Source: a virus
Taxonomy: Duplodnaviria; Heunggongvirae; Uroviricota; Caudoviricetes
IMG/VR virus record: IMGVR_UViG_2778261375_000003
Length of the DNA: 64,000 nt
Reading direction: 5' to 3' (one strand)
Part shown: positions 21,430-28,650 of the stretch, in pieces
Layout: the number at the start of each line of letters is the position of its first letter
Numbering within the stretch: the first letter of the stretch is position 1
Notes under the pieces: generated by a model
Told to the model about the DNA's origin: nothing
Databases searched by the model: none
The model's input: only the letters and a program-made list of their open reading frames with translations
Made by a program: the position numbers and the translations under genes

Positions 21430-21951
21430 TTATTTCTTTTCTGGACAAGTAGCATTTGGCTGAATTCGAGTTTCATTATCTTTAGTTGAAATAAGCACAG
21501 CAAGCCCCGTTGTAAACTGGCATGCTTTACCAACTTGAGTTGAAGTGAACACCTTAGTTCCTTCTTTATAAGTCAGTGAAACACCTTCAACAATTGTTTT
21601 ATCACTAACCAAAGAACCAGCCGCTGCACCAAGAGCCGCACCACCAGTACCGCCAGCTACAGCACCCAGTGTCGATGTGCCTTTAACATTATAACCGGCA
21701 ACGCCCCCAGCAACAGCTCCCAGTACCGCACCAAATGTCTGTGCCGCTTCTTTATTAGCTTTATTATCAACTTTCACTTTAGCTGGAAGCACAGAGATAA
21801 TATTGACTGTCTTTGTTTCCTGCTTCGAATTCAATTGAGCGGTATCATAAACATCGGCAGCATAATCAGCACCGCTAGATTGACACCCAGAAAGAAGAAT
21901 TGCAGATACAACAAGAGCGCATAAAGTATACTTTTTAGACATAAGAATCAT
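21430..21951 (-). CDS. glycine-zipper lipoprotein
   Basis: Lipobox-like LLSGC near the N-terminus; GxxxG-rich segment GAVLGAVAGGVAGY...GAVAGGTGGAALGAAAG. Confidence 0.55.
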   Translation of the reverse strand: MILMSKKYTLCALVVSAILLSGCQSSGADYAADVYDTAQLNSKQETKTVNIISVLPAKVKVDNKANKEAAQTFGAVLGAVAGGVAGYNVKGTSTLGAVAGGTGGAALGAAAGSLVSDKTIVEGVSLTYKEGTKVFTSTQVGKACQFTTGLAVLISTKDNETRIQPNATCPEKK

Positions 21952-22232
21952 CCCAGAAAAACAAAAACCGGCGAGAAGTTACCACGAGAACGGAAAGTAA
22001 ACAAGAATACTCCCATTGACTTATATCAATTAATCAACTTTTTATAAGCTATCCCTAACTTATTGTGTATAGCTGAAAAGTCAGAGACAAGTTCACCATC
22101 TGCATTATTTCTTAAGTTAATAGTTTATTGCTAACTTAATTTATGTATCGACTATTGATATCCATCTTAAAGTTACAATATCCCTCTGCATTATTTTTCA
22201 TCACAAATAATATATCTATTGCACTACACTCA

Positions 22233-22249
22233 CCTGCTCTAATAAATTT
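22233..22249 (+). promoter_or_regulatory. C1-type repressor operator upstream of the icd-ant operon
   Basis: CCTGCTCTAATAAATTT, 15/17 match to the P1 C1 operator consensus ATTGCTCTAATAAATTT (consensus from memory). Confidence 0.5.
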
Positions 22250-22563
22250 GTATTTTTAAGTCACAAATGCTATCTTTTCGCATCATATTGACCTTTTAAT
22301 CGTTCAGGCTTATAGTTCCGCCGTCGTAGCAAATTCTGCGACCGGGTTTAGCAGCCTGAATGATTGTGCGGACAGCCGCAGATATCCGATATTGCGGTAT
22401 TTTTGTGTCCGTAAAACCGTGTTACGCCCAAATTATGGTGGGGCGTGATGGGGAGGCTTCGGCCTGCTGGTTTCACAATCGCCAGTCTGCTAACCCCGTC
22501 ACGTCCTGCCACCTGTTTAGCAGCGGGTAGCAGGTTGTTAAACCTGATTGTGAGGCCGTAACT

Positions 22564-22785
22564 ATGGTTAATGCCAATCCTTGCGCACGCCAAGAATTCA
22601 TCTGGCGTTTCTATTCCTGTAAAAAACACCACTATCACTTCGTCATCGCAGCAACAGAAGACGAAGCACGCTCTCAATTGCCTGATGGCCCCTGCATTTT
22701 TACTGCCCGTTTTTCAACTAACTCGCGCAATTCACTTAGTTACTGGAACCTCCCCTTCTCTGCCGACGTTCAGGGGGATTTATGA
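22564..22785 (+). CDS. icd: Icd-like small protein
   Basis: 73-aa ORF whose stop overlaps the antirepressor start (ATGA), as I recall for P1 icd-ant1. Confidence 0.4.
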   Translation: MVNANPCARQEFIWRFYSCKKHHYHFVIAATEDEARSQLPDGPCIFTARFSTNSRNSLSYWNLPFSADVQGDL

Positions 22786-23825
22786 AAAAACCTCTCGTCA
22801 CCCGTAATGAAATAGCCGAAGCGATCGCCCTGCATACAACCTGTATGCCGACACGGGAGATCCCCGGCGCAATTGCCAACTATTTCATGATAACCAGACG
22901 TTTTTATACCCGAACAGATAAGGCTGTGATCAACAAGCTACTGATAGCCGAGATCAGGGATTATTTGATTGAACAAGGACGTCTACGTTACGCAACAGTG
23001 GCAGCAGAAATGAGAAAGGAGGCGCGCAGAATGACCGGTAATAATTTGAATGTTGAAAAACCAGCACCTGTTGCTTCAGCTACGCCATCACCAGCTGTGA
23101 ATGTTATCTCCAACACTGGAGACACAATCGACAGCCAGACACTGTTAAAGATGGTCAATGAAGCTCGTAAGTTATGTGGGGAACCAGAGGTTCGGAACAA
23201 CAAATTCATCGAAAAAATACTCGACGAATTAGAAGGTGAGGACGGTTACACAAAAAGTGCAACCGTGCCGCCAGGTGGCGGTACGCCTATGGTTGTCATA
23301 ACCATGACCTACAAACAAGCCCTGCGAGTCGCCGCACGCGAATCAAAAGCCGTCCGCCGTTCGCTGATCGACAAACTGGAAGAATTGCAGCAGGCAAACT
23401 CCCCTGCCCCATCGATCCCCCAAACATTACCAGAAGCTCTACGCCTGGCTGCCGAGTTGGCAGAACAGAAAATGCAGCTGGAACAACAGCTGGTGGCCGC
23501 CGCTCCTAAAGTCGATTTTGCCGACCGGGTATCAGTGGCTAATGGAATCCTGATCGGGAACTTTGCAAAGGTCGTTGGACTTAAGCAAAACGCCCTTTTC
23601 TCATGGTTGCGCCAGAACGGCATTCTCATGGCTTTTGGTGCGCGCAAAAACGTACCGCGCCAACAGTACATCAACGCCGGGTATTTCACGGTGAAAGAAG
23701 TGGTGCTGGATGATGAAAATGGCTACCAGATACGGCTGACGCCCCAATTAACGGGTAAAGGCCAGCAGTGGTTAACTCGCAAGCTACTTGATGCTGGTTT
23801 GTTAAAACCAGTAGCAATAGGTTAA
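22782..23825 (+). CDS. ant1: antirepressor with KilA-C-like C-terminal domain
   Basis: C-terminal PEALRLAAELAEQK...YFT...TGKGQQWL block is repeated in the next gene; typical phage antirepressor architecture. Confidence 0.6.
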   Translation: MKKPLVTRNEIAEAIALHTTCMPTREIPGAIANYFMITRRFYTRTDKAVINKLLIAEIRDYLIEQGRLRYATVAAEMRKEARRMTGNNLNVEKPAPVASATPSPAVNVISNTGDTIDSQTLLKMVNEARKLCGEPEVRNNKFIEKILDELEGEDGYTKSATVPPGGGTPMVVITMTYKQALRVAARESKAVRRSLIDKLEELQQANSPAPSIPQTLPEALRLAAELAEQKMQLEQQLVAAAPKVDFADRVSVANGILIGNFAKVVGLKQNALFSWLRQNGILMAFGARKNVPRQQYINAGYFTVKEVVLDDENGYQIRLTPQLTGKGQQWLTRKLLDAGLLKPVAIG

Positions 23826-23903: not shown

Positions 23904-23920
23904 TTTGCTCTAATAAATTT
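23904..23920 (+). promoter_or_regulatory. C1-type operator upstream of kilA-repL
   Basis: TTTGCTCTAATAAATTT, 16/17 match, 70 bp upstream of the kilA start. Confidence 0.55.
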
Positions 23921-23989: not shown

Positions 23990-24790
23990 ATGCAACAAAC
24001 ATTCAATGCGGATATGAATATATCAAACCTTCATCAAAATGTCGATCCTTCAACCACTCTGCCTGTTATTTGTGGTGTTGAAATTACGACCGACCGCGCT
24101 GGCCGTTACAACCTTAATGCTCTACACAGAGCGAGCGGACTCGGTGCCCATAAAGCGCCAGCTCAATGGCTAAGAACGCTGTCAGCCAAACAGCTCATCG
24201 AAGAGCTTGAAAAAGAAACTATGCAGAATTGCATAGTTTCGTTCGAAGGCCGTGGCGGCGGCACTTTTGCCCATGAATTGCTCGCTGTGGAGTACGCAGG
24301 CTGGATTTCTCCCGCATTTCGGCTGAAGGTAAACCAGACATTTATCGACTATCGAGCCGGAAGATTACAACCAGCTATTCCGCAGAGTCTCCCTGAAGCT
24401 CTCCGTTTGGCTGCCGACCTGGCAGAGCAAAAGCAACGGCTGGAGCAAAAAATGCTTATGGATGCACCTAAAGTCGAATTCGCCGAACGCGTTGCTACCG
24501 CTAGCGGGGTTCTAATCGGCAACTATGCCAAAGTGCTCGGCCTGGGCCAAAACTATCTCTTCACCTGGTTGCGTGATAACGGAATTCTGATCGCAACCGG
24601 TGAACGCAGGAACGTCCCCAAACAAGAATACATATCTCGTGGGTATTTCACCCTTAAAGAAACCGTGATCGATACAAGCAATGGAAGCAGGATTTCTTTC
24701 ACGACTCGTATAACCGGCAAAGGTCAGCAGTGGCTGATGAAGCGATTGCTTGATGCTGGTGTGCTGGTACCTGTCGCGGCAACGCGCTAA
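23990..24790 (+). CDS. kilA: KilA protein (KilA-N plus KilA-C domains)
   Basis: 266 aa; N-terminal KilA-N/AntA-like region and C-terminal block shared with the upstream antirepressor; precedes repL. Confidence 0.6.
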   Translation: MQQTFNADMNISNLHQNVDPSTTLPVICGVEITTDRAGRYNLNALHRASGLGAHKAPAQWLRTLSAKQLIEELEKETMQNCIVSFEGRGGGTFAHELLAVEYAGWISPAFRLKVNQTFIDYRAGRLQPAIPQSLPEALRLAADLAEQKQRLEQKMLMDAPKVEFAERVATASGVLIGNYAKVLGLGQNYLFTWLRDNGILIATGERRNVPKQEYISRGYFTLKETVIDTSNGSRISFTTRITGKGQQWLMKRLLDAGVLVPVAATR

Positions 24791-24819: not shown

Positions 24820-25665
24820 ATGCTGGCTAAAGTCACTTTCCTGAGCTGTATAACGATGAGCGATTTTACTTTTTCTGGCTATGAATTGGCCTGCTTTGTA
24901 ACACACTCCGGTCTATCCCGTAGCGCCGGGCATATCCTGTCGCAATGTGCAAATCTCGCGGCAACAACCAGTGAATACTTCATTCACAAGCCTCACCGCC
25001 TGATCGCGGCAGAAACTGGTTATAGCCAATCAACCGTCGTTCGTGCATTCCGTGAAGCTGTAAACAAAGGAATTCTGTCTGTAGAGATTGTTATCGGCGA
25101 TCACCGTGAACGTCGCGCTAACCTGTACCGGTTTACACCATCCTTTTTGGCCTTCGCACAACAAGCCAAAAATGCGCTGATAGAAAGCAAATTAAAGATC
25201 TCTTCAGCGGCAACCAAGGTTAAAGCTGTTCTCGCTAAGACATTGGCTTTATTTAATTTTTTATCCACACCCCCATGTCAAAATGATACCCCCTCCCCCT
25301 GTCAGGATGACGTGGCAATAAAGAATAAGAAGTCACAAGTTAAAAAAACAAAAAGATCAGTTTCCGGCGGTGCCGGAACGACCAGCCTCAAAAAATTGAC
25401 TTCATGGATCGCTAAGGCAAAAGCAAAGGCTGACAATCTGCGGTTATCCAAAAAACGCACTCAAAAACATGAGTTCAAGCAGAAAGTAGAGGCGGCTGCG
25501 CGGAAATATGCTTACCTGAAGAACAAGCGTTCGCCTGATATTGGCGGGATATCAAACTTCGATAACCTACCGCATTGCATGACGGTAAACGAAGCTCTTA
25601 ATGCGGTTTTAGCCAAAAATAAAGATAACGAACAATGGGGTATACCGGCAGGATTCAGAGGGTAA
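24820..25665 (+). CDS. repL: RepL-like lytic replication protein
   Basis: 281 aa with HTH-like segment AETGYSQSTVVRAFREAVNKGIL; position after kilA; true start may be an internal Met. Confidence 0.5.
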   Translation: MLAKVTFLSCITMSDFTFSGYELACFVTHSGLSRSAGHILSQCANLAATTSEYFIHKPHRLIAAETGYSQSTVVRAFREAVNKGILSVEIVIGDHRERRANLYRFTPSFLAFAQQAKNALIESKLKISSAATKVKAVLAKTLALFNFLSTPPCQNDTPSPCQDDVAIKNKKSQVKKTKRSVSGGAGTTSLKKLTSWIAKAKAKADNLRLSKKRTQKHEFKQKVEAAARKYAYLKNKRSPDIGGISNFDNLPHCMTVNEALNAVLAKNKDNEQWGIPAGFRG

Positions 25666-25833
25666 TGAATTGCTCTAATTATAACCATGCATACTTTCAA
25701 CACCTCTAGTTTGCCATGAGGCAAACTCATAGGTGTCCTGGTAAGAGGACACTGTTGCCAAAACTGGACGCCCCATTATTGCAATTAATAAACAACTAAC
25801 GGACAATTCTACCTAACAATAAGTGGAGTTAAC

Positions 25834-26538
25834 ATGTTGAACCGAAGAACATTTAATGTATTCTGCGATGAATCCTGTCACCTACTAAATGATCATAATA
25901 AAGTCATGGTATTGGGTGCGCTTTGGTGTCCCGGCACTATCACAAAAAAAATTGCTAGAGACATCAAGGAATTAAAATTAAAACACAATCTAAAACCTGA
26001 TTTCGAAATCAAGTGGACTAAAGTATCTGCGTCCAAAGTTGAATTTTACTTAGATGTCGTAGATTACTTCTTCAGCAACCCTGCATTGCGCTTTAGAGGT
26101 GTTGTTGTTCCTGATAAAGAGCAACTGGACCATGCTCGATTCCATCAAGATCATAATACTTTCTATTATAAGATGTTTTTTTATGTCTTAAAAAACATAA
26201 TAGAAAGTAACAACACATACAATATCTACCTAGATATAAAAGATACTTTAGGTATTGAAAAAATTGAGAAATTAAGAGGGGTTCTTCACAATGATCGCTA
26301 TGATTACAATCATGAGTCGATAAACAGAATTCAACATATACGATCTCATGAAGTGCAGCAATTGCAGCTAACGGATCTTTTCATTGGCGCGTTAGGCTAC
26401 GTTCATCGAGGAATGAATAGCAACGCGGGAAAAATCCAAGTCATAAACAGAATAAAATCACATACAAACAGGGAGTTACTAAAAAGTACTCTTCCAACAG
26501 AAAGTAAATTTAATATTTTCGTGTGGGAGGCTCGCTGA
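25834..26538 (+). CDS. DUF3800-like protein (N-terminal FCDES motif), AT-rich island gene 1
   Basis: 234-aa ORF with GGAG ribosome-binding site; markedly AT-rich; N-terminus FNVFCDESCH resembles the DUF3800 xDESG start (from memory). Confidence 0.55.
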   Translation: MLNRRTFNVFCDESCHLLNDHNKVMVLGALWCPGTITKKIARDIKELKLKHNLKPDFEIKWTKVSASKVEFYLDVVDYFFSNPALRFRGVVVPDKEQLDHARFHQDHNTFYYKMFFYVLKNIIESNNTYNIYLDIKDTLGIEKIEKLRGVLHNDRYDYNHESINRIQHIRSHEVQQLQLTDLFIGALGYVHRGMNSNAGKIQVINRIKSHTNRELLKSTLPTESKFNIFVWEAR

Positions 26539-27002
26539 TGCTTCAAATGCCAGATTTATTGTACTTCAATGGAAGTTGGCAAGAGTATATAGACGATGTA
26601 TATGATGTTGTTAGAGAAGATATTTTAATATCTAATATAACGTTTAAGGGTCTCCCTGTTCGATTACGTTATTCACCGGAATATAATGGGAAAGAATTCG
26701 GATTTTGGCATTTAGTATCAGAGGGAAAAATAGAAGAAGAACGTATACCCGATCTTGAACGGTGCAAGCGAATTCGCTGGATCGCGCACATGATAAGGAA
26801 TTATAACCATTGCGATATATCATGTTGGTCTGAAAGACGAGGACCAACTGAAGAGTGGGTAATCTGGAATGAGTGTGAAAACTACGTTGTTGTGCTATCC
26901 GCACGTAGAGACTATTGGCTTCTCAAAACAGCCTATGTTGTAACCTATGACAGTAAAATCAGAACACTCAAACAAAGCAGAAAAAGAGCACTTGGGACAT
27001 AA
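26538..27002 (+). CDS. hypothetical protein, AT-rich island gene 2
   Basis: Start taken at ATG 26538, overlapping the upstream stop as TGATG, with GGGAGG ribosome-binding site; Cys/His-containing; no motif I can name. Confidence 0.5.
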   Translation: MLQMPDLLYFNGSWQEYIDDVYDVVREDILISNITFKGLPVRLRYSPEYNGKEFGFWHLVSEGKIEEERIPDLERCKRIRWIAHMIRNYNHCDISCWSERRGPTEEWVIWNECENYVVVLSARRDYWLLKTAYVVTYDSKIRTLKQSRKRALGT

Positions 27003-27167
27003 AAAGCTGAACCCGACACATATTGCTATGTATCGGGTTCGATCGCTCTTTCTACACATGGTAGATGAGTAATGCAAATCTAACCGATCTACTTTAGCTT
27101 TTCAATAGCTAGCTATAACTTTCCGCACATATTCTTCTGATAATTCCGGGAGAGCGGTTGGGTTTTT

Positions 27168-27464
27168 TCATGCTTTTCTGCGCAGAGAAGCACACTTATT
27201 CAGCAATAATAAGTGCAATTCTTTGTTATCACTAAGTATTTCTACACACCAATATCGTAACGTGTTCACTTCAAGTGTAGCCAGCACCTTATGTCGAAAA
27301 GCCCCCTCCCCTACACATAACGATGGCTGACATTCTGCTAAGGCACATAACCATGTATTGGCATCATAGAGAATCCAATAATGCTCCTCGGAAATAGTTT
27401 TGCATCCAATTATTTCGAATCTTCGTTCTATCGTTTCAGGAGAGTATGAAAAATCAATTTCCAT
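27168..27464 (-). CDS. hypothetical small protein convergent on the island
   Basis: 98-aa AT-rich ORF on the opposite strand, between the island and the structural-operon terminator. Confidence 0.35.
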   Translation of the reverse strand: MEIDFSYSPETIERRFEIIGCKTISEEHYWILYDANTWLCALAECQPSLCVGEGAFRHKVLATLEVNTLRYWCVEILSDNKELHLLLLNKCASLRRKA

Positions 27465-27504
27465 AATATGCTCAAAATTTCGCTATATTGACATGATTTA
27501 AGCA

Positions 27505-27529
27505 CAAAAAAGCTCCCGAAGGAGCTTTA
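27505..27529 (-). terminator. rho-independent terminator of the structural operon
   Basis: Hairpin AGCTCC-CGAA-GGAGCT with a T-run on the minus strand, just downstream of the gene ending at 27548. Confidence 0.55.
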
Positions 27530-27547
27530 AAATACAAGGGATGACTC

Positions 27548-28057
27548 TTAATCCCACTCAATCCAGTTGTAGACGATACGAAGTGACGGGCGCACAGCGG
27601 CAGTCACATCTTCGGTACTAAAGTCGATTGCATCACTGTAGATTTTGCAGTCCAACATTTCAATTGTTGTAGCAGCTTTTGTCACAGCGTTAACCCCGGA
27701 AGATTTGGATTCAGGGGTCGCAGCCATCGTGATATCAACATAGTCCTTCGCCGCAATGCGATCTTTAATGAACTGAAGAATATCGCCTTCGATAGTCTCC
27801 ACGCACTGGACCTGGATTTCCCCAGAGTTTCGAATTGGACCGTGCTGGTTGAACTTCACACCATTCGGACCATAGTCCTCCACATCCTCGCGGGTCATTT
27901 CAGGAATTTGCGACGTGCGAACCAGTACGCTGATATCTTCATGGCCTGCAAAAGTGAGCTGGAATTCAGAAGATACCAGTCGTTCGCCTTTGGCCGCGTT
28001 GGCAGTATAGCGGCCCTTAATAAATTTACGGTTTCCCTTAGTGTTATTGTGCCCCAT
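27548..28057 (-). CDS. structural protein (tail tube-like size)
   Basis: 169-aa ORF ending the minus-strand structural operon. Confidence 0.4.
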   Translation of the reverse strand: MGHNNTKGNRKFIKGRYTANAAKGERLVSSEFQLTFAGHEDISVLVRTSQIPEMTREDVEDYGPNGVKFNQHGPIRNSGEIQVQCVETIEGDILQFIKDRIAAKDYVDITMAATPESKSSGVNAVTKAATTIEMLDCKIYSDAIDFSTEDVTAAVRPSLRIVYNWIEWD

Positions 28058-28068
28058 ATAAAATCCTT

Positions 28069-28650
28069 TTACTGGAACGCCCGAACAATATCGGAGCTGT
28101 TATATATCGAAGAACCGGTCAACTGGAGGTTGACGGTGTTTTTCAGGAAATGCCCATTGCTGTCCCTGGGCGCATCGAGATCGAAACTTATGTCCTGGAT
28201 AGCGACATCAATGATGTTGATCCGGCGACCAATGTTTAGCGTCACACGCTCCGGGATTCGACCACCAATGCTGGCATCTTTAAGTTCCGGGCTAATCATC
28301 GCTGACAATGCGGCGATAGCTCCTGAAACCTCAGTGAATGGGTCAAACAAAGCGATGAAAGTTACTGGCAGCGTGAAAGTCGGCGGTGTTCCCCCCTCCC
28401 AAACCATTAAGCTGTTCCAACGGGCCACCGACGTTGTTTCAGTACCAACCTGCGCAAAACCACTGAAAGCACCAGCAACAGACCCCATGGACATACCGGT
28501 AAACGGCGCTTCCCAATTCTGGGCCATGTTCATTGCTGCCCCCTGGCTGATATATCCGGTAACCTGGTACTGAGAGTTCGTTAAAGTAACTTTCAGAAAT
28601 GGCGATACACCGTCAGCCTGGCTGTAAACCCCATAAGGTATAGGTGCCAT
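28069..28650 (-). CDS. structural protein, function unknown
   Basis: 193-aa ORF in the structural operon. Confidence 0.4.
   Translation of the reverse strand: MAPIPYGVYSQADGVSPFLKVTLTNSQYQVTGYISQGAAMNMAQNWEAPFTGMSMGSVAGAFSGFAQVGTETTSVARWNSLMVWEGGTPPTFTLPVTFIALFDPFTEVSGAIAALSAMISPELKDASIGGRIPERVTLNIGRRINIIDVAIQDISFDLDAPRDSNGHFLKNTVNLQLTGSSIYNSSDIVRAFQ

What the first reader, a model, noticed from the sequence alone, without database searches (positions are those of the whole stretch)
25666..27547. AT-rich three-gene island between repL and the structural operon: DUF3800-like protein coupled to a small partner, with a convergent small gene
Base composition drops sharply across about 1.9 kb between the repL stop (25665) and the structural-operon terminator (about 27505-27529). 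The island holds a 234-aa protein starting FNVFCDES (DUF3800-like by my recollection), a 154-aa Cys/His-containing partner coupled by a TGATG overlap with its own GGGAGG site, and a convergent 98-aa gene. A weak C1-operator-like site (ATTGCTCTAATTATAAC, 25669-25685) and two hairpins precede it. This is the position I recall for the uncharacterised rlfA/rlfB genes of P1, so it may be conserved yet still functionally undescribed.
Basis: partly seen in the sequence, partly recalled or inferred. Interest (0 to 1): 0.7.

Follow-up and report, generated by a model that had tools for sequence, protein, structure and literature searches.

The report
P1 rlfA-rlfB: candidate nuclease defence cassette
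This low-GC stretch is the already annotated rlfA-rlfB-pmgF region of phage P1, and the evidence suggests rlfA-rlfB is a dispensable, horizontally moving two-gene nuclease cassette of a catalogued but untested candidate anti-phage family, not a replication function.

Summary
The window is bacteriophage P1 itself: the region is 100% identical to AF234173 and NC_005856. The finding covers the annotated C1 operator Orlf (Op55), rlfA, rlfB and pmgF. Every descriptive claim checks out. It is the lowest-GC 1.9-kb stretch of the 64 kb.

The two genes are an obligate pair. An RlfB homologue follows RlfA in 80 of 80 bacterial loci from many phyla, and in 78 of 80 viral loci (the other two are cut by contig ends). 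The stop/start overlap is usually conserved. Both proteins hit PADLOC's candidate system PDC-M04, which was predicted by embedding and has not been validated. I reproduced that embedding between hsdS and hsdR of type I restriction-modification operons.

In P1-like elements the cassette sits in a variable cargo slot, present in about 15-18% of them. Published CRISPRi data show it is non-essential. pmgF is not part of the conserved module.

My best reading is an accessory anti-MGE or abortive-infection nuclease module. The mechanism is inferred, not shown.

The parts
25669..25685 (+). Orlf (former Op55), a monovalent C1 repressor operator: ATTGCTCTAATTATAAC
   Evidence: It is annotated in AF234173. 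Its exact 11-nt operator core, ATTGCTCTAAT, is strongly over-represented in the window. Homology to other P1-like phages that lack the island ends at 25679, which is the end of that core.
25680..27505 (.). Variable low-GC cargo segment of P1-like phage-plasmids, replaced by unrelated genes in RCS47, SJ46 and Ro157c2YLVW
   Evidence: blastn breakpoints fall at 25679 (25632 for SJ46) and at 27506. The alternative contents of this slot are shown. The GC minimum of the whole window lies here. PMC9603915 lists rlfA-rlfB-pmgF as variable region 5, associated with low G+C.
25708..25752 (+). Two hairpins in the rlfA leader (25708-25727 and 25733-25752), function unknown
   Evidence: The RNA fold of 25666-25840 has an MFE of -45 kcal/mol, z = -3.4 against shuffles. 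No Rfam family matches here at E<=10, including the DUF3800-associated motifs.
25779..25807 (+). PrlfA, a predicted sigma-70 promoter (GenBank prediction only)
   Evidence: It is annotated as 'predicted' in AF234173. It was not recovered by the consensus scan used here, so it is weak or uncertain.
25834..26538 (+). rlfA: a 234-aa DUF3800 protein with a predicted RNase HII/H2-like fold, the putative metal-dependent nuclease of the cassette
   Evidence: - Pfam DUF3800, E = 3.5e-14.
- PADLOC PDC-M04A, E = 1e-95.
- AF2 model pLDDT 87.7.
- D12, E13, D134, K136, D137, Q178 and D181 are invariant; all of these except D12, E13 and Q178 also reach 95% or more among the 78 sequences.
- Median pairwise identity is 56% across phyla.
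26538..27002 (+). rlfB: a 154-aa obligate partner of RlfA, translationally coupled (TGATG overlap, GGGAGG Shine-Dalgarno), family without Pfam annotation
   Evidence: - PADLOC PDC-M04B, E = 1.3e-51.
- No Pfam hit and no PDB sequence hit.
- 1804 50%-identity clusters found, of which the 150 best are nearly all stand-alone proteins of about 150-190 aa.
- Immediately downstream of RlfA in 80/80 and 78/80 loci.
- AF2 pLDDT 91.4.
- Foldseek against the PDB finds nothing significant.
27009..27040 (.). Hairpin between convergent rlfB and pmgF; terminator-like on the minus strand (T-run follows)
   Evidence: The scan reports a 14-pair stem followed by AGCTTTTTAT on the minus strand. On the plus strand it lies 7 nt after the rlfB stop codon.
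27168..27464 (-). pmgF: a 98-aa gene of unknown function, not part of the conserved RlfAB module
   Evidence: - No Pfam, NCBIfam or PADLOC hit.
- PHROG 7349, function unknown.
- Residues 3-67 are 43% identical to the N-terminus of a 198/210-aa protein at the same position in RCS47 and SJ46.
- Homologues occur only in P1-like loci.
- Non-essential (PMC10695390).
27509..27528 (-). Intrinsic terminator after bplB, the end of the structural operon and the right boundary of the variable segment
   Evidence: The terminator scan finds an 8-bp GC-rich stem plus a T-run. This junction (query bases 1841-1882, window 27506-27547), not the island itself, is what matches in the roughly 530 further P1-like plasmids of each collection that lack the island.

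Best explanation
rlfA-rlfB is a horizontally acquired, dispensable two-gene cassette. It occupies a variable cargo slot between the lytic replicon (repL/oriL) and the tail/baseplate operon of P1.

**What the two proteins are.** RlfA is a DUF3800-family enzyme with an RNase HII/H2-type fold and a complete set of invariant acidic residues (D12, E13, D134, D181). I take it to be a Mg2+/Mn2+-dependent nuclease acting on RNA-containing substrates, such as RNA:DNA hybrids or structured RNA. RlfB is a small, faster-evolving protein that is always encoded immediately downstream and is translationally coupled. I take it to form a complex with RlfA and to gate or target it, as a sensor, regulator or specificity subunit.

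**What the pair does.** It belongs to PADLOC candidate system PDC-M04. Its most likely role is an anti-mobile-element function (phage defence or abortive infection) that benefits the element carrying it. It is probably not a role in P1 lytic replication.

**Shown here.** Identity with P1; the predicted folds; residue conservation; obligate pairing; translational coupling; defence and prophage-cargo contexts; patchy presence among P1-like elements.

**From the literature.** Non-essentiality for lytic growth.

**Inferred.** Nuclease activity and substrate; physical A-B interaction; which partner is effector and which is regulator; any anti-phage phenotype; whether C1 binding at Orlf silences the cassette in lysogens.
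For: 1. **Family.** RlfA hits PDC-M04A (1e-95) and RlfB hits PDC-M04B (1e-51). These PADLOC candidates were defined by embedding in BREX, DISARM and type I R-M loci (bioRxiv 10.1101/2024.01.29.577857).
2. **Independent reproduction of the context.**
   - In 80 bacterial loci from many phyla the pair is always adjacent and on the same strand.
   - 18 of 65 immediate upstream neighbours are type I S subunits, and 8 of 53 downstream neighbours are type I R subunits.
   - Other neighbours include MmeI/Eco57I-type enzymes, GmrSD, Mrr, KwaB and AAA_15/21.
   - Explicit examples are hsdM-hsdS-rlfA-rlfB-hsdR in L081 and hsdM-hsdS-rlfAB-GmrSD-hsdR in L072.
3. **Prophage context.** In non-P1 prophage contigs the pair sits beside integrases, CI-type repressors and lysis genes, which is the usual cargo position.
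5. **Coupling and evolutionary rate.** The stop/start overlap is -4, -1 or -8 in 57 of 77 loci. A is more conserved than B in 98% of sequence pairs (56% against 38% median identity).
6. **Accessory nature in P1.**
   - It has the lowest GC of the window.
   - It is present in 117 of 652 E. coli genomes with P1-like elements and in 99 of 651 matching plasmids.
   - It is replaced by other cargo in RCS47, SJ46 and Ro157c2YLVW.
   - CRISPRi knock-down of rlfA, rlfB or pmgF does not stop plaque formation (PMC10695390).
   - The repL regions annotated as shared with P1-based vectors end at or before window 25830, upstream of rlfA.
Against: - **No phenotype.** No experiment shows an anti-phage phenotype for PDC-M04 or for P1 rlfAB. 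A full-text search for 'PDC-M04' returned nothing.
- **The context evidence is by association.** About 70% of loci are not embedded in R-M.
- **C1 control.** An annotated C1 operator lies upstream. The genes are grouped with the lytic replication genes, and rlfB with the early ones, in an RNA-seq preprint. If they are repressed in lysogens, a classical prophage-encoded defence role is less natural.
- **No named system matches.** Known DUF3800 partners (structured RNAs, RT, TPR-Cas12) are absent here, so mechanisms cannot be transferred directly. No named, validated system in PADLOC-DB 2.0 matches either protein.
Confidence: 0.45

Rival explanations
1. Lytic-replication accessory, the original GenBank suggestion. 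RlfA would act as an RNase H-type enzyme that processes the transcript or R-loop at the transcription-activated origin oriL inside repL, in the manner of primer maturation. RlfB would be its cofactor.
For: - The genes lie directly downstream of repL/oriL on the same strand, and are annotated 'possibly associated with lytic replication'.
- A C1 operator lies upstream, as for other early P1 genes.
- They are grouped with the replication genes, and rlfB with the early ones, in RNA-seq data (preprint 10.64898/2025.12.28.696737).
- The RNase H2-like fold would suit RNA:DNA hybrid processing.
Against: - Non-essential for plaque formation (PMC10695390).
- Absent from about 82-85% of P1-like elements, and the three island-lacking phages examined (RCS47, SJ46, Ro157c2YLVW) keep repL at 96-98% identity.
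- The repL regions annotated as shared with P1-based vectors end at or before window 25830 and so exclude rlfA and rlfB.
- The same gene pair occurs in more than 140 loci of unrelated bacteria and prophages where no repL was seen among the nearest neighbours, often inside R-M operons.
- The low GC and sharp breakpoints mark it as foreign cargo.
Confidence: 0.1
2. A toxin-antitoxin or addiction module that stabilises the plasmid prophage. One partner is a toxic RNase: either RlfB, as a RelE/colicin-D-like toxin, or RlfA. The other partner neutralises it. This overlaps with the best explanation where TA systems act as abortive-infection defences.
For: - Two small overlapping genes, mobile and found on plasmids, prophages and defence islands.
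- The second gene evolves faster, as antitoxins often do.
Against: - Natural variants keep an intact rlfA with rlfB truncated by IS600 (also L097 and L099). B is split in 3 of 80 loci. So B is unlikely to be an indispensable antitoxin of A, unless A is silent.
- No typical antitoxin DNA-binding domain was found.
- P1 already carries phd-doc (established knowledge).
- An RNase-H-fold enzyme about 56% identical across phyla is unlike a classical antitoxin.
Confidence: 0.15
3. A phage counter-defence function. RlfAB would be expressed early in lytic growth to destroy a host immune nucleic acid, for example retron msDNA, guide RNAs or signalling oligonucleotides.
For: - The cassette is phage-borne, lies downstream of a C1 operator, and is transcribed with the replication genes during infection.
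- The RNase H-like fold could attack RNA:DNA hybrids such as msDNA.
- Its patchy distribution is typical of accessory arms-race genes.
Against: - Homologous pairs are mostly chromosomal, embedded between hsdS and hsdR or beside other defence genes in bacteria of many phyla. This is the signature of defence genes rather than anti-defence genes.
- In other prophages the pair sits by the integrase/repressor cargo slot.
- No similarity to known anti-defence proteins was seen.
Confidence: 0.1

Closest known systems
PADLOC phage defence candidate PDC-M04 (Payne et al., guilt-by-embedding candidates)
   Same: Both proteins match its HMMs strongly (A 1e-95, B 1e-51). The gene order, same-strand adjacency and frequent embedding in type I R-M operons were reproduced here.
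   Different: PDC-M04 is only a prediction, with no reported phenotype or mechanism. The P1 copy is not embedded in an R-M system. It lies on a phage-plasmid behind a C1 operator.
DUF3800 effectors of type VII retrons (Mestre et al. 2020, PMC7736814)
   Same: The same Pfam family, the same N-terminal DE motif, and the same RNase H2-like structural prediction.
   Different: Retron DUF3800 proteins are fused or adjacent to a reverse transcriptase and an msr/msd RNA. They lack the Q of the QxxD motif and carry DEED. RlfA has QxxD and D at the third position, has no RT or ncRNA partner in P1, and pairs instead with RlfB.
TPR-DUF3800 accessory proteins of CRISPR-Cas V-A2 (Cas12a2), Cas12a3 and VI-F loci (PMC10910872, PMC12669027, bioRxiv 10.64898/2026.01.16.699850)
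   Same: A DUF3800 RNase-H-fold nuclease serving as an add-on to an immune module.
   Different: Those proteins carry TPR repeats and sit in CRISPR loci. RlfA is a stand-alone 234-aa domain with a protein partner and no CRISPR context.
DUF3800-associated structured RNAs (DUF3800-I to -XI, drum, skipping-rope; Weinberg et al. 2017, PMC5737381)
   Same: They show that DUF3800 proteins typically work with a dedicated, rapidly diversifying partner encoded next to them.
   Different: No such RNA was detected next to rlfA or in 20 related loci. In this subfamily the constant neighbour is a protein, RlfB.
PrrC anticodon nuclease embedded in the EcoprrI type I R-M locus
   Same: Many RlfAB homologues occupy the same kind of genomic position, between hsdS and hsdR. 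A nuclease is held next to an R-M system. Payne et al. cite PrrC as the archetype of embedded defence.
   Different: There is no sequence or fold relationship. PrrC is a single ABC-ATPase/nuclease protein. Most RlfAB copies, including P1's, are not R-M embedded, so any dependence on R-M proteins is unlikely.
Type 2 RNases H (RNase HII / H2A)
   Different: Sequence identity is 7-13%, and there is no Pfam RNase_HII hit. RlfA has extra invariant residues (C15, H16, C32, E58, K60, H100, H107, K136, D137 and a conserved C-terminal 45 aa) and an obligate partner. It is not a housekeeping RNase H.

Membership tests
Pfam DUF3800 (PF12686) | HMM score above the gathering threshold | tested here: met
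   RlfA scores 54.2 bits against a cut-off of 21, E = 3.5e-14, covering profile positions 1-148 of 149.
Pfam DUF3800 (PF12686) | N-terminal DE motif and C-terminal QxxD motif | tested here: met
   D12-E13 (CDESCH) and Q178-L-T-D181 are invariant in alignment A1. D181 is present in 78 of 78 sequences. The motif definition comes from PMC7736814.
Pfam DUF3800 (PF12686) | RNase H-like fold | tested here: met
PADLOC PDC-M04 (candidate defence system) | Both component HMMs (M04A and M04B) hit | tested here: met
   PDC-M04A at 1e-95 and PDC-M04B at 1.3e-51, with 11 further M04B models also hitting.
PADLOC PDC-M04 (candidate defence system) | The two genes are adjacent on one strand | tested here: met
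   P1 has a 1-nt overlap. The arrangement holds in 80/80 genome loci and 78/80 viral loci.
PADLOC PDC-M04 (candidate defence system) | Family members embedded in known defence systems | tested here: met
   This holds for the family: 18/65 upstream neighbours are type I S and 8/53 downstream are type I R, with explicit examples in L081 and L072. The P1 copy itself is not embedded.
PADLOC PDC-M04 (candidate defence system) | Protection against phage infection | not testable with these tools
   No published assay was found. Plaque assays are needed.
Type 2 RNase H (RNase HII/H2) | Sequence-family membership | tested here: not met
Type 2 RNase H (RNase HII/H2) | Catalytic carboxylate tetrad in the structurally equivalent positions | tested here: inconclusive
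   Invariant D12/E13 lie near the C-terminal end of strand 5-14, D134 lies at the end of strand 127-134, and D181 lies in helix 175-191. These fit the expected topology, but no residue-level superposition was available.
Type 2 RNase H (RNase HII/H2) | Cleavage of RNA in RNA:DNA hybrids | not testable with these tools
   A biochemical assay is required.
RelE/ParE - colicin D - CdiA-CT (BECR-type) RNase toxins, for RlfB | Shared fold | tested here: inconclusive
RelE/ParE - colicin D - CdiA-CT (BECR-type) RNase toxins, for RlfB | Sequence-family membership | tested here: not met
   No Pfam toxin family was found for any of 19 RlfB homologues, even at E<=10. There is no PDB sequence hit.
P1 lytic replicon (kilA-repL-oriL) | Co-inheritance with repL among P1-like elements | tested here: not met
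   The whole island is present in 117 of 652 E. coli genomes carrying the P1-like junction, and in 99 of 651 plasmids. repL is retained at 96-98% identity in phages lacking it.
P1 lytic replicon (kilA-repL-oriL) | Required for lytic growth or oriL function | not tested
   I ran no test. The literature reports CRISPRi knock-down as non-essential (PMC10695390). The repL regions annotated as shared with P1-based vectors end upstream of rlfA.
DUF3800-associated RNA motifs (Rfam) | A covariance-model match next to the DUF3800 gene | tested here: not met
   There is no relevant match in window 25000-28200 at E<=10, and none at gathering score in 20 related loci totalling 105 kb.

The most novel reading that the evidence does not exclude
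RlfAB (PDC-M04) is a genuine, very widespread two-protein immune module. An RNase-H2-fold nuclease is controlled by a dedicated small protein, RlfB, which takes the place held by structured RNAs, reverse transcriptases or TPR-Cas12 in other DUF3800 systems. In P1 the module is wired to the C1 repressor, so it fires on induction or infection. That would be a phage-deployed nuclease used against competing elements or host immune nucleic acids during the lytic cycle.
Probability: 0.2. Interest if true: 0.7.

Novelty: already known. Interest (0 to 1): 0.4.

Why it matters
P1 is one of the best-studied phages, yet rlfA and rlfB still carry a positional guess as their annotation: 'replication-linked'. 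That guess has been propagated into PHROGs and RefSeq as 'replication protein', and some RlfB homologues are even called 'oxidoreductase'.

The evidence here suggests these names are unsupported. The pair belongs to a large, cross-phylum family of RNase-H-fold nuclease plus small partner. There are at least 1800 RlfB clusters at 50% identity, and they sit in defence contexts.

P1 offers a highly tractable genetic system, and the cassette is non-essential. It would therefore be a convenient place to test whether PDC-M04 is a real defence system and what DUF3800 nucleases cleave. That question also bears on type VII retrons, on Cas12a2/a3 and VI-F accessory proteins, and on the eleven orphan DUF3800 RNA motifs. 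The object itself is already annotated and catalogued, so what this adds is a re-interpretation and a testable hypothesis, not a discovery.

Tried and rejected
- **Structured RNA partner.** I looked for a DUF3800-associated structured RNA. Rfam found nothing in the P1 region at E<=10 or in 20 related loci at gathering score. The leader hairpins are real, but I could not assess their conservation, because they lie inside the variable segment that other P1-like phages lack and the closest relative, P7, is about 97% identical.
- **Solved DUF3800 structure.** A PDB sequence search with the RlfA profile gave only chance-level hits.
- **Domain fusions of RlfB.** The 150 best of 1804 representative hits are almost all stand-alone proteins of about 150-190 aa.
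- **pmgF as a third component.** No homologue sits next to any non-P1 RlfAB pair.
- **Using natural disruptions to decide which partner is toxic.**
  - rlfB truncated by IS600 with rlfA intact exists.
  - Truncated rlfA variants also exist, but with rlfB lost or not called.
  - This is not decisive, because expression in lysogens is unknown.
- **Literature.** Nothing was found for 'PDC-M04'. The only relevant papers mentioning rlfA or rlfB were comparative genomics, one CRISPRi screen and one RNA-seq preprint. The P1 genome paper (Lobocka et al. 2004) is not held.
- **sigma-70 promoter.** The consensus scan did not recover the promoter predicted in GenBank, and found no more promoter-like sites than shuffled sequence gives.
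Full report
**1. What the region is**

A megablast of window 25666-27547 against the phage collection gives 100% identity over the full length to Escherichia phage P1 (AF234172, AF234173 and NC_005856, at 51572-53453). It gives 96-97% identity to P7, JL22 and vB_EcoM-813R1. So the window is P1 itself.

The GenBank annotation of AF234173 places these features here, converted to window coordinates:
- the C1-controlled operator Orlf, formerly Op55, at 25669-25685;
- a predicted promoter, PrlfA, at 25779-25807;
- rlfA at 25834-26538 (+);
- rlfB at 26538-27002 (+);
- pmgF at 27168-27464 (-);
- bplB from 27548 onwards.

**2. Check of the observation**

- **ORFs and junction.** The ORFs are as described. 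The rlfA/rlfB junction is GGGAGGCTCGCTGATGC, with a 1-nt stop/start overlap.
- **GC content.** The region is 37.4% GC, against a window mean of 47.7% (sd 2.7% for 1882-bp windows). It is the single lowest such window in the 64 kb (profile).
- **Operator.** The operator-like site is the annotated Orlf. Its first 11 nt, ATTGCTCTAAT, recur exactly six times in the window. Allowing one mismatch there are 8 matches against 1.6 expected, and none of 100 shuffles reaches 8.
- **Leader.** The leader 25666-25840 contains two hairpins, at 25708-25727 and 25733-25752. It folds more stably than its shuffles (z = -3.4).
- **Terminators.** The terminator at 27509-27528 belongs to the minus strand, after bplB. 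A second hairpin, at 27009-27040, separates the convergent rlfB and pmgF.

**3. The proteins**

*RlfA (234 aa).*
- It passes the Pfam DUF3800 threshold.
- An AlphaFold2 model built on 14 diverse homologues has pLDDT 87.7.
- D12-E13, D134 (with K136 and D137) and Q178-x-x-D181 are invariant in alignment A1; D134, K136, D137 and D181 are also in 78 of 78 sequences in the larger set. They sit near the end of the first strand, at the end of the fourth strand, and in a C-terminal helix. That is the layout expected of an RNase H carboxylate tetrad. This is my inference, because no residue-level superposition was available.
- The result agrees with what others predicted for DUF3800 (PMC7736814; PMC10910872; PMC12669027).
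- A subfamily-specific cluster of C15, H16 and C32 (with C11 in most sequences) lies next to the DE motif.

*RlfB (154 aa).*
- It has no Pfam, NCBIfam or PDB sequence match.
- Its model is confident (pLDDT 91.4). It has N-terminal helices, a four-stranded antiparallel sheet and a C-terminal helix.
- Foldseek against the PDB finds nothing significant.
- I treat the RelE-like resemblance as a lead, not an assignment.
- Conserved residues are P5, F56-W-H58, R69, D72, R75, R78, W81, W97, R123 and T131.

*PmgF (98 aa).* It matches only PHROGs of unknown function.

**4. The pair is obligate and widespread**

RlfA-type proteins are numerous: 5464 hits in the word-indexed search, still about 55% identical in Bacteroidota and Nitrospirota. 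A profile of RlfB finds 1804 clusters at 50% identity; the 150 best are almost all stand-alone proteins of about 150-190 aa.

I scanned one genome per species with an RlfA alignment and took the 80 best loci. They come from Proteobacteria, Bacteroidota, Nitrospirota, Chloroflexota, Cyanobacteria, Acidobacteriota, Planctomycetota and other phyla.
- Every locus has an RlfB homologue immediately downstream on the same strand. In three of them it is split.
- In 80 viral or prophage contigs, 78 have it, and the other two end at the contig edge.
- The stop/start overlap is -4 in 34 loci, -1 in 13 and -8 in 10, out of 77.
- RlfA is more conserved than RlfB in 98% of sequence pairs (median identity 56% against 38%).

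The GenBank notes already recorded adjacent Shewanella oneidensis homologues of both proteins, NP_719790 and NP_719789, in 2004.

**5. Genomic context elsewhere**

*Immediate neighbours in the 80 bacterial loci.*
- 16-18 of 65 upstream genes are type I specificity subunits.
- 8-11 of 53 downstream genes are type I restriction subunits.
- The remainder include MmeI/Eco57I-type enzymes, GmrSD, Mrr, KwaB, AAA_15/AAA_21 ATPases and other PADLOC candidates.
- Explicit examples are hsdM-hsdS-rlfA-rlfB-hsdR in an Acidobacteria genome (L081) and hsdM-hsdS-rlfAB-GmrSD-hsdR in Flavobacterium cheongpyeongense (L072).

*PADLOC.* Both P1 proteins hit the PADLOC models PDC-M04A (1e-95) and PDC-M04B (1e-51). 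According to Payne et al. (bioRxiv 10.1101/2024.01.29.577857), the PDC systems are candidates inferred from embedding in BREX, DISARM and type I R-M loci. They were not among the seven systems those authors validated.

*Non-P1 prophage contigs.* The neighbours are integrases (11 of 120 neighbour proteins scanned, from about 35 non-redundant loci), HTH and S24 repressors, holins and amidases. That is the usual cargo slot of temperate phages.

*RNA partners.* No Rfam family, including the DUF3800-associated motifs of Weinberg et al. (PMC5737381), was found next to rlfA or in 20 related loci.

**6. Status within P1-like elements**

- **Boundaries.** Homology between P1 and RCS47, SJ46 and Ro157c2YLVW stops at 25679 (25632 for SJ46) and resumes at 27506.
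- **Alternative cargo.** Between those points the other phages carry different genes: an IS transposase plus a 198-aa protein, a Lom-like outer-membrane protein plus hypothetical proteins, or small hypothetical proteins.
- **Frequency.** Of 652 complete E. coli genomes that contain the P1-like junction, 117 carry the whole island. The figure for PLSDB plasmids is 99 of 651.
- **Published descriptions.** Others have listed rlfA-rlfB-pmgF as a low-GC variable region of P1-like phage-plasmids (PMC9603915) and described its replacement or deletion (PMC6906374).
- **pmgF.** It is not part of the conserved module. Its residues 3-67 are 43% identical to the N-terminus of the 198/210-aa protein at the same position in RCS47 and SJ46. 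No homologue accompanies any non-P1 RlfAB pair.

**7. Function**

The annotation 'possibly associated with lytic replication' rests on position only. The evidence against it:
- CRISPRi knock-down of rlfA, rlfB or pmgF leaves plaque formation intact, whereas the neighbouring bplB is essential (PMC10695390).
- The repL regions annotated as shared with P1-based vectors end at or before window 25830, upstream of rlfA.
- Most P1-like elements lack the genes, and the three island-lacking phages examined keep repL.
- The same pair occurs in many loci where no repL was seen among the nearest neighbours.

The evidence for an anti-MGE role is by association, but it is consistent across independent data sets: R-M embedding, defence-gene neighbours, prophage cargo position, patchy distribution, foreign base composition, and the use of DUF3800 domains by retrons and by Cas12a2/a3 and VI-F loci.

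I therefore commit to this model. RlfA is a metal-dependent RNase-H-type nuclease effector. RlfB is its translationally coupled regulator or sensor. The cassette interferes with invading or competing genetic elements, by defence or abortive infection. Confidence is about 0.45.

The following are unresolved:
- what the substrate is;
- whether A and B interact;
- which partner, if either, is toxic;
- how C1 binding at Orlf affects expression.

The last point matters. If the cassette is silent in lysogens and expressed with the lytic replication genes, as the grouping in an RNA-seq preprint suggests, its role would be exerted during lytic growth rather than by the prophage.

Natural variants exist with rlfB truncated by IS600 and rlfA intact (also L097 and L099). 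This argues mildly against RlfB being an indispensable antitoxin of RlfA.

**8. Rivals**

The rivals are a replication accessory (0.1), a toxin-antitoxin or addiction module (0.15, overlapping with abortive infection) and phage counter-defence (0.1). The evidence for and against each is given in the rival section.

**9. Novelty and verdict**

- The object is the reference P1 sequence.
- The genes have been named since 2004.
- RefSeq already labels RlfA as DUF3800.
- The pair is already in PADLOC as candidate PDC-M04.

The feature is therefore already known, and I score novelty accordingly.

What remains open, and easy to test in P1, is the function. The analysis also shows that the propagated names for RlfB lack support: 'replication protein' (PHROG 16230 and RefSeq) and 'oxidoreductase'. 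Interest is moderate, at 0.4.

Noticed in passing
L008:4464-5969 (Algoriphagus pacificus NZ_JAFKCU010000003.1): A 502-aa reverse transcriptase (Pfam RVT_1, 4e-14) lies directly upstream of the RlfAB-like pair, between hsdM and hsdR. Type VII retrons pair an RT with DUF3800, so this could be an RT-plus-RlfAB combination or simply a neighbouring defence RT.
   Followed up: no
L085:4166-6727 (E. coli plasmid pAUSMDU00014361_02); also L097 and L099: P1-like plasmids in which rlfB is truncated while rlfA remains an intact 234-aa ORF. In L085 the truncation is to about 88 aa and is caused by an IS600 insertion, and a cnf3 toxin gene lies nearby. L097 and L099 carry a similarly shortened rlfB ORF, cause not examined. 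This bears on whether RlfB is needed to tolerate RlfA.
   Followed up: partly
window 26538-27002 (rlfB) and its homologues P0002, P0007, P0008, P0010, P0016: RlfB is called 'replication protein' in RefSeq and PHROG 16230, and its homologues are called 'oxidoreductase' by NCBI. I found no domain or experimental basis for either name. This looks like annotation propagated from position or error.
   Followed up: partly
window 25669-25679: The homology breakpoint between P1 and the island-lacking P1-like phages RCS47 and Ro157c2YLVW falls at the last base of the conserved 11-nt core of the C1 operator Orlf. Those phages therefore keep the operator core but have a different 3' half and different downstream cargo.
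   Followed up: no
window 39992, 43673, 57358, 57413 (-), 59499; one-mismatch copies at 23904 and 53740 (-): Further exact copies of the C1 operator core ATTGCTCTAAT occur elsewhere in the window. The copy at 23904 is the annotated OrepL/Op53. The pair at 57358 and 57413 is inverted and 45 bp apart. I did not map the others to annotated operators.
   Followed up: no
window 25864-25881 and 25927-25929 (RlfA residues C11, C15, H16, C32): The RlfA subfamily has a conserved Cys/His cluster (C-D-E-S-C-H ... W-C-P) immediately around the catalytic DE motif. C15, H16 and C32 are invariant and C11 is near-invariant. It may be a metal or redox site. I recall the generic DUF3800 motif reading DESG instead; that was not checked here.
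   Followed up: no
window 21800-22400: A second marked GC trough (0.34) lies a few kb upstream of the finding. It lies close to the sim/c4 end of the immunity region (the simA promoter maps to about window 22200), and the sim genes are listed as another low-GC variable region of P1-like phage-plasmids (PMC9603915). I did not examine it.
   Followed up: no
window 22782-23825 (ant1) and 23990-24790 (kilA): The two proteins share a long, similar C-terminal half (...PQ(T/S)LPEALRLAA(E/D)LAEQK...GKGQQWL...LLDAG(L/V)L), visible in the ORF translations. They are paralogous KilA-N/ANT-type proteins placed back to back upstream of repL.
   Followed up: no
window 27168-27464 (pmgF) versus L082:3775-4371 and L083:3775-4407: PmgF shares only its N-terminal ~65 residues (43% identity) with a 198/210-aa protein at the same position in RCS47 and SJ46. 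This suggests a modular protein whose C-terminal part has been swapped or lost. The name 'putative morphogenetic function' has no support, and the gene is non-essential.
   Followed up: partly
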